From: the human T2T-CHM13v2.0 reference genome, Homo sapiens | Reading direction: 5' to 3' (one strand) | Length of the DNA stretch: 64,000 nt | NCBI RefSeq assembly: GCF_009914755.1 | Contig: NC_060942.1 | The notes under the pieces: model-generated | Told to the model about the DNA's origin: nothing | The model's database searches: none | What the model saw: the letters and a program-made list of their open reading frames with translations, nothing else | Shown here: positions 20,801 to 21,633 of the stretch, piece by piece | Position numbering within the stretch: position 1 is the stretch's first letter | How the letters are laid out: the number at the start of each line of letters is the position of its first letter | Position numbers and translations under genes: made by a program

Positions 20801-21633
20801 CAAAAGCAATGGCAACAAAAGCCAAAATTGACAAATGTGATCTCATTAAACTAAAGAGCTTCTGCACAGCAAAAGAAACTACCCTCAGAGTGAACAGGCA
20901 ACCTACAGAATGGGAGAAAAGTTTTGCAACCTACTCATCTGACAAAGGGCTAATATCCAGAATCTACAATGAAGTCAAACAAATTTACAAGAAAAAAACA
21001 AGCAACCCCATCAAAAAGTGGGCAAAGGATATGAACAGACACTTCTCAAAGGAAAACATTTATGCAGCCAAAAAACACATGAAAAAATGCTCATCATCAC
21101 TGGCCATCAGAGAAATGCAAATCAAAACCACAATGAGATACCATCTCACACTAGTTAGAATGGCGATCATTAAAAAGTCAGGAAACAACAGGTGCTGGAG
21201 AGGATGTGGAGAAATAGGAACACTTTTACACTGTTGGTGGGACTGTAAACTAGTTCAACCATTGTGGAAGTCAGTGTGGCGATTCCTCAGGGATCTAGAA
21301 CTAGAAATACCATTTGACCCAGCCATCCCATTACTGGGTATATACCCAAAGGACTATAAATCATGCTGCTATAAAGACACATGCACACGTATGTTTATTG
21401 CAGCATTATTCACAATCGCAAAGACTTGGAACCAACCCAAATGTCCAACAATGATAGACTGGATTAAGAAAATGTGGCACATATACACCATGGAATACTA
21501 TGCAGCCATAAAAAATGATGAGTTCACGTCCTTTGTAGGGACATGGATGAAACTGGAAATCATCATTCTCAGTAAACTATCGCAAGGACAAAAAACCAAA
21601 CACCGCATATTCTCACTCATAGGTGGGAATTGA
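17807..21633 (+). pseudogene. L1 ORF2p (endonuclease-RT-C-terminal domain), disrupted
   Basis: EN (LNVNGLN, MGDFN, SDH), RT (LFADDM) and Cys-rich C-terminus. Stops at 18272-18274, 18830-18832 and 20608-20610, plus a frameshift near 18870. Confidence 0.95.

What the first reader, a model, noticed from the sequence alone, without database searches (positions are those of the whole stretch)
21056..21552. 497-bp perfect identity between two L1s of different age 34.6 kb apart: candidate gene-conversion tract
Seen: by manual alignment 21056-21552 (L1 #1, ~L1PA4) is identical to 55656-56152 (L1 #3, L1PA2/3). The preceding 300 bp (20761-21060 vs 55361-55660) differ at 14 positions (~4.7%), so about 23 differences would be expected in the tract. 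It includes three alleles not in L1 #2 or the recalled L1 consensus: T21152/55752 (HLTLVR for HLTPVR), C21417/56017, and C21527/56127 (EFTSF for EFMSF). Both elements keep their own TSDs and distinct 3'UTRs, so neither is a duplicate of the other. Inference: recent non-allelic gene conversion, probably #3 to #1, since #1 shows young-type alleles (ggactata, gcattatt) here.
Basis: partly seen in the sequence, partly recalled or inferred. Interest (0 to 1): 0.8.

Follow-up and report, generated by a model that had tools for sequence, protein, structure and literature searches.

The report
Gene-conversion patch between two L1s
About half a kilobase of an old, dead L1 retrotransposon upstream of SYT4 has been overwritten with sequence copied from a younger L1 34.6 kb away, a clean but unsurprising example of non-allelic gene conversion between interspersed repeats.

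Summary
Window 21056-21552 and 55656-56152 are identical over 497 bp, while the rest of the two L1s differs by about 5%. Chance is excluded: 0 of 200,000 permutations reach 497, and the analytic P is about 5e-9.

The two L1s are independent insertions with their own target-site duplications. A 36-mer carrying two alleles of the tract occurs exactly twice in the 3.1-Gb genome, both times here. The version in L1 #2 occurs 2,358 times.

The tract has the younger element's profile and none of the older element's private changes, so L1 #3 was the donor and L1 #1 the recipient.

Measured against 14 genomic copies of #1's own lineage, #1 also carries donor alleles at 21560, 21573 and 21609 but keeps its own at 21553 and 21587. 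The event is therefore a discontinuous tract spanning 458-587 bp.

No new difference has arisen since, which bounds its age at roughly 3-7 My.

L1-L1 conversion is a known process, so this is a new instance of it. No functional consequence is evident. A side finding is that L1 #2 and #3 share a four-allele combination unique in the genome.

The parts
15694..21857 (+). L1 #1, the recipient. It is a full-length older L1 with broken ORF1 and ORF2.
   Evidence: It has an 18-bp exact target-site duplication at 15676-15693 and 21858-21875, and its 5' end reads as an L1 5'UTR start. ORF2 is split at about 18272, 18820 and 20608. It carries about 1.6-2.7% private changes. Its nearest genomic relatives are 96-97% identical.
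53731..56474 (+). L1 #3, the donor. It is a 5'-truncated younger L1.
   Evidence: It has a 12-bp target-site duplication with 1 mismatch at 53719-53730 and 56475-56486. It aligns to #1 over 19133-21861. Its nearest genomic relatives are 98% identical. About 1% of its sites are private.
21056..21552 (+). Main converted segment in L1 #1, 497 bp identical to 55656-56152.
   Evidence: It holds 0 #1-private and 0 #3-private differences. It carries T21152, A21402, C21417 and C21527, which are rare or unique genome-wide, and young-type C21354 and T21406, where 14 of 14 copies of #1's lineage have T and C.
21553..21642 (+). Mosaic 3' continuation of the converted region. Donor alleles sit at 21560, 21573 and 21609; recipient alleles are kept at 21553 (C) and 21587 (G).
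   Evidence: Of the 14 lineage-matched copies, 13 have C21560, 14 have C21573 and 14 have G21609, whereas #1 has T, T and A like #3. No #1-private site lies in 21553-21642; the first is at 21649.
55656..56242 (+). Donor template stretch in L1 #3, corresponding to 21056-21642.
   Evidence: The offset is a constant 34,600. Only two differences from #1 fall in this span, at 56153 and 56187.
27848..30183 (+). L1 #2, a bystander used as third sequence. It is 5'-inverted and truncated, and it shares four rare alleles with #3.
   Evidence: It has a 13-bp target-site duplication at 27835-27847 and 30184-30196. The inverted piece 27845-28354 plus the direct piece 28351-30183 are shown. It differs from the tract at 7 of 497 sites.

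Best explanation
A DNA break in the old, dead, full-length L1 #1 was repaired by homologous recombination without crossover. The template was the co-oriented, younger, truncated L1 #3, 34.6 kb downstream on the same chromosome, on the sister chromatid, or on the homologue after misalignment. Heteroduplex or synthesis copied #3's sequence, including #3's own private mutations, into #1 over a span of 458-587 bp (at least 21152-21609, at most 21056-21642). About 20 old-type or private bases of #1 were erased. Near the 3' end two mismatches, at 21553 and 21587, were resolved in favour of the recipient, leaving a discontinuous tract. Both of those are G/C in the recipient and A/T in the donor. The event is young: no new difference has arisen, giving a 95% upper bound of roughly 3-7 My. 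What is shown: the identity, the independence of the insertions, the alleles shared uniquely by the pair, the direction, and the mosaic end. What is inferred: the break-repair mechanism, the cell type (meiotic, pre-meiotic or cell line), and the date.
For: 1. There is an exact 497-bp run inside an alignment that is about 5% diverged. P is about 5e-9, and 0 of 200,000 permutations reach it.
2. Each L1 has its own target-site duplication and its own truncation point.
3. The 36-mer with A21402 and C21417 occurs 2 times in 3.1 Gb, both here. The version in L1 #2 occurs 2,358 times. The only 100% matches to the tract in the genome are these two copies. The next best has 5 mismatches, with 40 of 2,229 candidates scored.
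4. Direction. #1-private sites number 20 in 1,256 bp upstream, 0 in the 497 bp tract and 8 in 296 bp downstream. The tract is 2.29% from #3's relatives and 3.43% from #1's relatives. That matches #3's flank (1.81% and 3.36%) and not #1's flank (4.31% and 3.76%).
5. Lineage switch. 14 of 14 copies of #1's lineage have T21354, C21406, T21527, C21573 and G21609, yet #1 has #3's alleles there.
6. Trees. In the tract #1 is sister to #3. In the flanks #1 sits inside a starred clade (96) of 25 old-type copies, and forcing #1 with #3 costs 63 log-likelihood units.
7. Collinearity and constant offset show that no crossover product and no indel were left.
Against: 1. There is only one assembly and no reads, so an assembly or polishing artefact cannot be excluded directly.
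2. No outgroup or second haplotype shows #1's state before the event.
3. SH-aLRT for the (#1,#3) pair in the tract tree is only 73, and the AU test on the flanks is borderline (p 0.0575).
4. A Sawyer-type test on the three window copies alone would be weak, because only 7 polymorphic sites lie in the tract.
5. G21165 inside the tract is the old-type allele (16 of 29 old-type copies, 0 of 11 young copies). This fits the direction only because #2 also has it.
6. Comparison sets are the best-scoring 40 of thousands of candidates and were chosen by similarity, which biases distances downward.
7. Before the event the longest identical stretch between the two elements outside the tract was 75 bp. 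From recalled work, that is short for efficient mammalian homologous recombination.
8. No PRDM9-type 13-mer lies near the tract.
Confidence: 0.86

Rival explanations
1. Assembly or polishing artefact: reads from L1 #3 were used to correct L1 #1, or the reverse, creating false identity.
For: Only one assembly was available, and no read-level check was possible with these tools.
Against: The patch is 0.5 kb with sharp edges, inside elements of 6.2 kb and 2.7 kb that are otherwise about 5% diverged and sit in unique flanks. A collapse would act on the scale of reads. A polishing error would have to change about 20 bases yet leave 21553 and 21587 untouched. That long accurate reads span such elements is established knowledge, not tested here.
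Confidence: 0.03
2. Gene conversion in the opposite direction: L1 #1 donated the tract to L1 #3.
For: G21165 inside the tract is the old-type allele. T21152 is also present in L034, the nearest relative of #1's flank.
Against: The tract carries none of the roughly 9 private changes expected of #1. It has young-type C21354, T21406, T21560, T21573 and A21609, against 13-14 of 14 copies of #1's lineage. Its nearest genomic relatives are young-type copies only 1.0-1.8% away, while #1's flank has no relative closer than 3.2%. L1 #2 differs from it by 1.4%, as it does from #3's flanks.
Confidence: 0.03
3. The repair was templated by RNA or cDNA from a read-through transcript of L1 #3, or the patch is a chimeric L1 made during retrotransposition, rather than DNA-DNA conversion.
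For: The sequence outcome of RNA-templated repair would be indistinguishable from DNA-DNA conversion. Chimeric L1s formed with endogenous L1s are recalled from cell-culture work.
Against: The patch is internal and does not reach the poly-A. It leaves #1's own 3'UTR, tail and target-site duplication intact. The donor alleles are private to a promoterless, truncated copy, not to an active lineage. The mosaic end fits heteroduplex repair.
Confidence: 0.05
4. No exchange took place. The interval is conserved or slow-evolving in L1, or both copies inherited the same rare sub-lineage sequence.
For: Four of the seven sites where L1 #2 differs from the tract are polymorphic among L1 copies.
Against: Unrelated copies differ by 2.6-4.7% in this interval. 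Both flanks of #1 are old-type with a heavy private load. The A21402+C21417 haplotype exists only in these two copies. Two insertions of their estimated age should each have gathered several private changes in 497 bp, about 9 and 5 expected, and none is seen.
Confidence: 0.01

Closest known systems
Non-allelic gene conversion between Alu elements (passages read in PMC8230782 and PMC6598467; Kass 1995, Roy 2000 and Aleshin & Zhi 2010 as cited there)
   Same: An interspersed retroelement is partly overwritten by another copy. The result is a mosaic of subfamily-diagnostic sites. Young elements more often replace old ones (40 AluS-to-AluY cases against 12 reverse). Nearby copies are favoured.
   Different: Here the elements are L1s, the tract (458-587 bp) is longer than a whole Alu, the donor copy itself is identified through private alleles, and the distance is 34.6 kb. 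For Alus the elevated rates were reported within less than 10 kb (PMC6598467 passage).
[quoted passage not shown] Known here only through its citation in PMC1920257; the paper itself was not held.
   Same: The proposed mechanism is the same: a break in one L1 is healed by copying from another L1.
   Different: That was an induced break in cultured mouse cells. This is a natural, fixed or segregating event in a human genome with a nearby cis donor.
Locus NCLI34 of Sen et al. 2007 (PMC1920257, passage read): an L1 whose 377-bp middle segment was attributed to intra-chromosomal gene conversion
   Same: It is a human L1 with an internal patch of a few hundred bp whose best match lies elsewhere on the same chromosome.
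   Different: There the match was 98% and the context was a non-classical insertion. Here the match is 100%, the donor is 34.6 kb away, and both partners are ordinary insertions flanked by target-site duplications.
Interlocus gene conversion in segmental duplications (PMC3790853, passages and table rows read)
   Same: It shows an intrachromosomal bias, an average identity of converted pairs of 96.0%, and tracks enriched in repeats.
   Different: Those scans work on annotated segmental duplications. That isolated interspersed L1 copies such as these fall outside such annotations is my inference, not something I read in the passages.
Complex, discontinuous non-crossover tracts in human meiosis (PMC4404656 and PMC13600919, passages read)
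   Same: Donor and recipient alleles alternate within a short span, and patchy GC-favouring repair of heteroduplex has been proposed. Both sites retained here are G/C in the recipient.
   Different: Those are allelic events seen in pedigrees or sperm. This one is non-allelic and inferred from lineage sites. Its span is well above the 71-bp single-distribution mean and within the reported range of 100-1000 bp.

Membership tests
Non-allelic (interlocus) gene conversion tract | A stretch of sharply raised identity between two paralogous copies, bounded on both sides by their usual divergence | tested here: met
   There are 0 differences in 497 bp, against 4.76% upstream (36 of 756) and 9.1% downstream (27 of 296). 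No permutation in 200,000 reaches the run.
Non-allelic (interlocus) gene conversion tract | The two copies arose independently and are not a duplication of one another | tested here: met
   They have different target-site duplications, different 5' ends (full length against truncated at the position matching 19133) and different tails.
Non-allelic (interlocus) gene conversion tract | Transfer of private variants: alleles shared by the pair and absent from the rest of the family | tested here: met
   The 36-mer with A21402 and C21417 has 2 places genome-wide, against 2,358 for the version in L1 #2.
Non-allelic (interlocus) gene conversion tract | Phylogenetic incongruence between tract and flanks | tested here: met
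   Lineage sites switch. In the tract tree #1 is sister to #3 (support 73). In the flank tree #1 sits in a starred clade with 25 old-type copies. The AU test on the flanks gives p 0.0575, which is borderline.
Non-allelic (interlocus) gene conversion tract | No crossover product: the intervening DNA is kept and register is unchanged | tested here: met
   The constant offset of 34,600 on both sides and the presence of the 34.6 kb between the copies show this.
Non-allelic (interlocus) gene conversion tract | The unconverted ancestral state is seen at the orthologous locus in other species or haplotypes | not testable with these tools
   No other human or ape genome was available. Only the window's own assembly could be searched.
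Complex (discontinuous) conversion tract | Donor and recipient alleles alternate within one short span | tested here: met
   The order along 21527-21643 is donor (21527), recipient (21553), donor (21560), donor (21573), recipient (21587), donor (21609), recipient (21643), judged against 14 lineage-matched copies. The inference rests on lineage expectation, not on #1's observed earlier state.
Named L1 subfamilies (L1PA4 for #1, L1PA2/3 for #3) | Match to subfamily consensus at diagnostic positions | tested here: inconclusive
   No consensus library was on hand. The published subfamily primers (PMC12432230, Table 1) match #1 with 1+0 (L1PA3 pair), 2+1 (L1PA4 pair), 1+1 (L1PA5 pair) and 2+2 (L1HS pair) substitutions. 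Only the relative age is shown, with #1 older than #3.
Chimeric L1 made during retrotransposition (cDNA joined to an endogenous L1, twin priming, template switch) | The foreign part runs to the 3' end or poly-A, or to a junction with a new target-site duplication, and the donor is an active lineage | tested here: not met
   The patch is internal. #1's own old-type 3'UTR resumes at 21643, and its 18-bp target-site duplication is intact. The donor alleles are private to a truncated copy.

The most novel reading that the evidence does not exclude
The three co-oriented L1s within 41 kb upstream of SYT4 form a small cluster that has exchanged sequence repeatedly, not once. Besides the recent #3-to-#1 tract, L1 #2 and L1 #3 (26.3 kb apart, with separate target-site duplications) share four alleles: T20209, G20371, G20879 and G21711 in #1 coordinates. 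Their exact k-mers have 49, 12, 44 and 78 places genome-wide. These two copies are the only ones found in more than one of the four lists, and they are in all four. Yet the two differ at 14 lineage-polymorphic sites where 1.4 are expected by chance, so they are not simple siblings from one source element. If exchange over tens of kb between copies about 95-98% identical is this frequent, divergence-based ages and subfamily calls of many L1s would be distorted, and dispersed L1s would undergo local concerted evolution.
Probability: 0.3. Interest if true: 0.55.

Novelty: new member of a known kind. Interest (0 to 1): 0.38.

Why it matters
The event gives a fully resolved natural example of L1-to-L1 gene conversion in a human genome. 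The donor copy, recipient copy, direction, tract limits to within about 100 bp, a mosaic end and an upper age are all defined.

Such events make an old element look younger in part. They move mutations between dead copies. They also mark pairs of repeats that can pair ectopically; here a crossover between the two L1s would delete or duplicate 34.6 kb next to SYT4.

With complete genomes the same test can be run genome-wide to measure how often interspersed L1s convert and over what distances. The test looks for long exact runs between neighbouring diverged copies, then checks k-mer uniqueness and lineage-matched controls. My searches of the held paper library found such surveys for Alus and segmental duplications but none for L1s.

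No effect on a gene or on L1 activity is evident. ORF2 of #1 stays broken in several places.

Tried and rejected
1. PRDM9 13-mer (recalled motif). It has 2 matches in the window, at 7346 and 30013, and none near the tract. This gives no support for a hotspot at the recipient.

2. Subfamily naming with published primers was indecisive.

3. An older #1/#3 exchange around 19884-20274. The shared A19884 turned out not to be rare (143 places). The T-T-T haplotype at 20040, 20175 and 20274 also occurs in an unrelated copy, L068. The interval holds 11 differences, including 5 #1-private sites. I dropped this as unsupported.

4. Is G20879 a subfamily marker? I looked at six of the 42 other copies carrying it. 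They are old L1s 5-8% away, and none has the other shared alleles. I treat it as homoplasy.

5. Is L1 #2 an unusually close relative of #3 overall? It is not among the 40 best genome-wide hits to #3's flank. Only the four rare alleles and two old-type alleles (G20908, G21165) link the two.

6. The longest identical run between #2 and #3, 20842-21151, is about 310 bp from the site list. My rough analytic estimate gives P of about 0.07, so it is not significant on its own.

7. GC bias of the event. Both retained sites are G/C in the recipient. However, 6 of the 8 sites with G/C in the recipient and A/T in the donor were converted, and 3 of 3 sites of the opposite kind were converted. The numbers are too few to test.

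Two papers, Tremblay 2000 and Aleshin & Zhi 2010, were not held.

9. A genome-wide control of neighbouring L1 pairs could not be run.

Full report
**What is there.**
The window holds three L1 elements on the + strand.
- L1 #1 (15694-21857) is full length. It has an exact 18-bp target-site duplication at 15676-15693 and 21858-21875. Its reading frames are broken, with ORF2 interrupted near 18272, 18820 and 20608.
- L1 #2 (27848-30183) has a 13-bp duplication. Its 5' piece 27845-28354 is inverted relative to the direct piece 28351-30183, a twin-priming type structure.
- L1 #3 (53731-56474) is 5'-truncated, with a 12-bp duplication carrying one mismatch.

So #1 and #3 are independent insertions. 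They align without length change at a constant offset of 34,600.

**The observation.**
Window 21056-21552 is identical to 55656-56152 over 497 of 497 bases, closed by mismatches at 21055 and 21553.
- The whole alignment has 119 mismatches and 1 gap in 2,729 columns.
- Random placement of the 119 differences never gave a run of 497 in 200,000 trials. The largest was 341, and the analytic P is 4.9e-9.
- In an alignment of 60 L1 copies (1,770 pairs) it is the longest exact run of all. The runner-up, 475, belongs to a pair only 0.75% apart.
- The interval is not slow-evolving. Unrelated genomic copies differ there by 2.6-4.7%, at least as much as in the upstream flank.

**Comparison copies.**
The window's own 3.1-Gb assembly could be searched. 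I collected three sets:
- 28 copies nearest to the tract (set A);
- 29 copies nearest to #1's upstream flank (set B);
- 11 of the 40 copies nearest to #3's upstream flank (set C).

In each search only 40 of thousands of candidates were scored (2,229, 7,461 and 3,764). The sets were chosen by similarity, which biases distances downward for the segment used as query.

**Shared private alleles.**
- Only the two window copies match the tract at 100%. The next best has 5 mismatches.
- A 36-mer spanning A21402 and C21417 occurs exactly twice in the genome, in #1 and #3. The version carried by L1 #2 occurs 2,358 times.
- The T21152 31-mer has 43 places and the C21527 31-mer 269.
- C21527 is present in 1 of 27 set-B copies and 0 of 11 set-C copies. 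Its high frequency in set A (26 of 28) reflects how that set was chosen.

**Direction.**
- In the three-way alignment, sites where #1 stands alone dominate outside the tract. Inside it there are 0 such sites, 0 where #3 stands alone and 7 where #2 stands alone.
- Sites private to #1 (allele at 10% or less in 57 other copies) number 20 in 1,256 bp upstream, 0 in the tract and 8 in 296 bp downstream. Those private to #3 number 12, 0 and 4. About 9 #1-private sites would be expected in the tract had it come from #1.
- The tract lies 2.29% from set C and 3.43% from set B. #3's flank shows 1.81% and 3.36%, whereas #1's flank shows 4.31% and 3.76%.
- L1 #2 differs from the tract by 1.41%, as it does from #3's flank (1.34%) and unlike #1's flank (4.55%).

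All of this points to #3 as donor. One site goes the other way: G21165 is the old-type allele. L1 #2 has it too, so it was probably native to #3.

**A longer, discontinuous tract.**
Fourteen sampled copies carry #1's lineage alleles on both sides of the tract, at 4 or more of 5 upstream and 8 or more of 9 downstream lineage sites.
- All 14 have T21354, C21406, T21527, C21553, C21573 and G21609. Thirteen of 14 have C21560 and 13 of 14 have G21587. None carries more than one of the six #3-type alleles.
- L1 #1 has #3's allele at 21354, 21406, 21527, 21560, 21573 and 21609, but keeps C21553 and G21587.
- From 21643 on it is old-type again, and its private changes resume at 21649.

The converted region therefore spans at least 21152-21609 (458 bp) and at most 21056-21642 (587 bp), with two unconverted sites inside. 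Both retained sites are G/C in the recipient and A/T in the donor. That is what patchy GC-favouring repair of heteroduplex would give, but the numbers are too small to test. Discontinuous non-crossover tracts are described for allelic events in humans (passages read in PMC4404656 and PMC13600919).

I rate this refinement at about 0.7, because it rests on the expected lineage state of #1 and not on its observed earlier state.

**Trees.**
- On columns 21056-21642, #1 and #3 are sisters (SH-aLRT 73), nearest to young-type copies.
- On the flanks, #1 lies in a starred clade (96) with 25 set-B copies.
- Holding #1 and #3 together there costs 63.3 log-likelihood units, but the AU test is only borderline (p 0.0575).

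**Age.**
No difference has arisen in 497-587 bp, which contain 5-7 CpGs. With recalled human mutation rates the 95% upper bound is about 6-7 My. At twice those rates it is about 3-3.6 My, and the medians are 0.7-1.7 My. The event may be human-specific, polymorphic, or even private to the sequenced cell line. None of these could be tested.

**Mechanism.**
The pattern is that of break repair in #1 templated by #3 without crossover. The patch is internal, the register is kept, the intervening 34.6 kb is present, and #1's own 3'UTR, tail and duplication are intact.
- This excludes a retrotransposition-made chimera.
- Outside the tract, the longest identical stretch between the two elements is 75 bp, so the exchange took place between rather diverged partners. 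An average identity of 96.0% is reported for converted pairs in segmental duplications (PMC3790853, table row read).
- No PRDM9-type motif lies near the tract.

**Known or new.**
- Gene conversion among Alus is well documented, and young elements often overwrite old ones (PMC8230782 and PMC6598467, passages read).
- Conversion between LINEs after a break was shown in mouse cells (Tremblay et al. 2000, seen only as a citation in PMC1920257).
- One human L1 with a 377-bp patch attributed to intra-chromosomal conversion is described as NCLI34 in PMC1920257 (passage read).
- My six searches of the held library found no systematic survey of L1-L1 conversion and nothing on this locus. That does not show that none exists, since subscription journals are mostly not held.

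I file this as a new member of a known kind.

**Side finding.**
L1 #2 and #3 share T20209, G20371, G20879 and G21711 (#1 coordinates), which are absent from all 68 sampled copies.
- This is the largest number of alleles shared by exactly two copies among 2,485 pairs. The next pair has 3.
- The exact k-mers have 49, 12, 44 and 78 places genome-wide. By my reading of the four lists, #2 and #3 are the only copies in more than one list.
- Yet the two differ at 14 lineage-polymorphic sites where 1.4 are expected, so a simple common source is unlikely.

Older exchange between them is the more likely reading, but it is not shown.

Noticed in passing
window 28536, 28698, 29198, 30030 (L1 #2) and 54809, 54971, 55479, 56311 (L1 #3): L1 #2 and L1 #3 are 26.3 kb apart and have separate target-site duplications. 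They share four alleles absent from 68 sampled L1 copies, and the combination is unique in the genome: the k-mer lists have 49, 12, 44 and 78 places, and only these two copies appear in more than one list. They nevertheless differ at 14 lineage-polymorphic sites. This suggests older sequence exchange between them, or a very rare shared source.
   Followed up: partly
window 29879 and 29928 (L1 #2), homologous to 21560 and 21609 of L1 #1: L1 #2 is otherwise young-type but has old-type C and G at exactly two of the sites where L1 #1 unexpectedly has young-type T and A. The pattern looks reciprocal. It may be coincidence, or a trace of an earlier #1-to-#2 transfer.
   Followed up: no
window 29227 and 29484 (L1 #2), 55508 and 55765 (L1 #3); #1 coordinates 20908 and 21165: Both young elements carry the old-type G at these two sites (10 of 11 and 11 of 11 of #3's relatives have A), as does the old L1 #1. 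The origin is unexplained.
   Followed up: partly
window 27845-28354 and 28351-30183: The 5' part of L1 #2 is inverted relative to its 3' part, and the two parts overlap by about 32 bp of L1 sequence. This structure is usually ascribed to twin priming.
   Followed up: no
window 51500-51745 (- strand): A 246-bp fragment of an L1 3' end lies on the opposite strand, 92.7% identical to L1 #1 21603-21848.
   Followed up: no
window 30013-30025 (- strand) and 7346-7358 (+): These are the only two matches in the window to the recalled 13-mer hotspot motif CCNCCNTNNCCNC. One lies in the G-rich 3'UTR stretch of L1 #2, the other just upstream of the SYT4 first exon. Five of 100 shuffles give as many.
   Followed up: no
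window 19884 and 54484; 20040, 20175, 20274 and their partners in L1 #3: L1 #1 and #3 share A19884 and an old-type T-T-T haplotype upstream of the tract. A19884 has 143 places genome-wide, and one unrelated copy has the same T-T-T, so this is probably lineage structure and not a second tract.
   Followed up: yes
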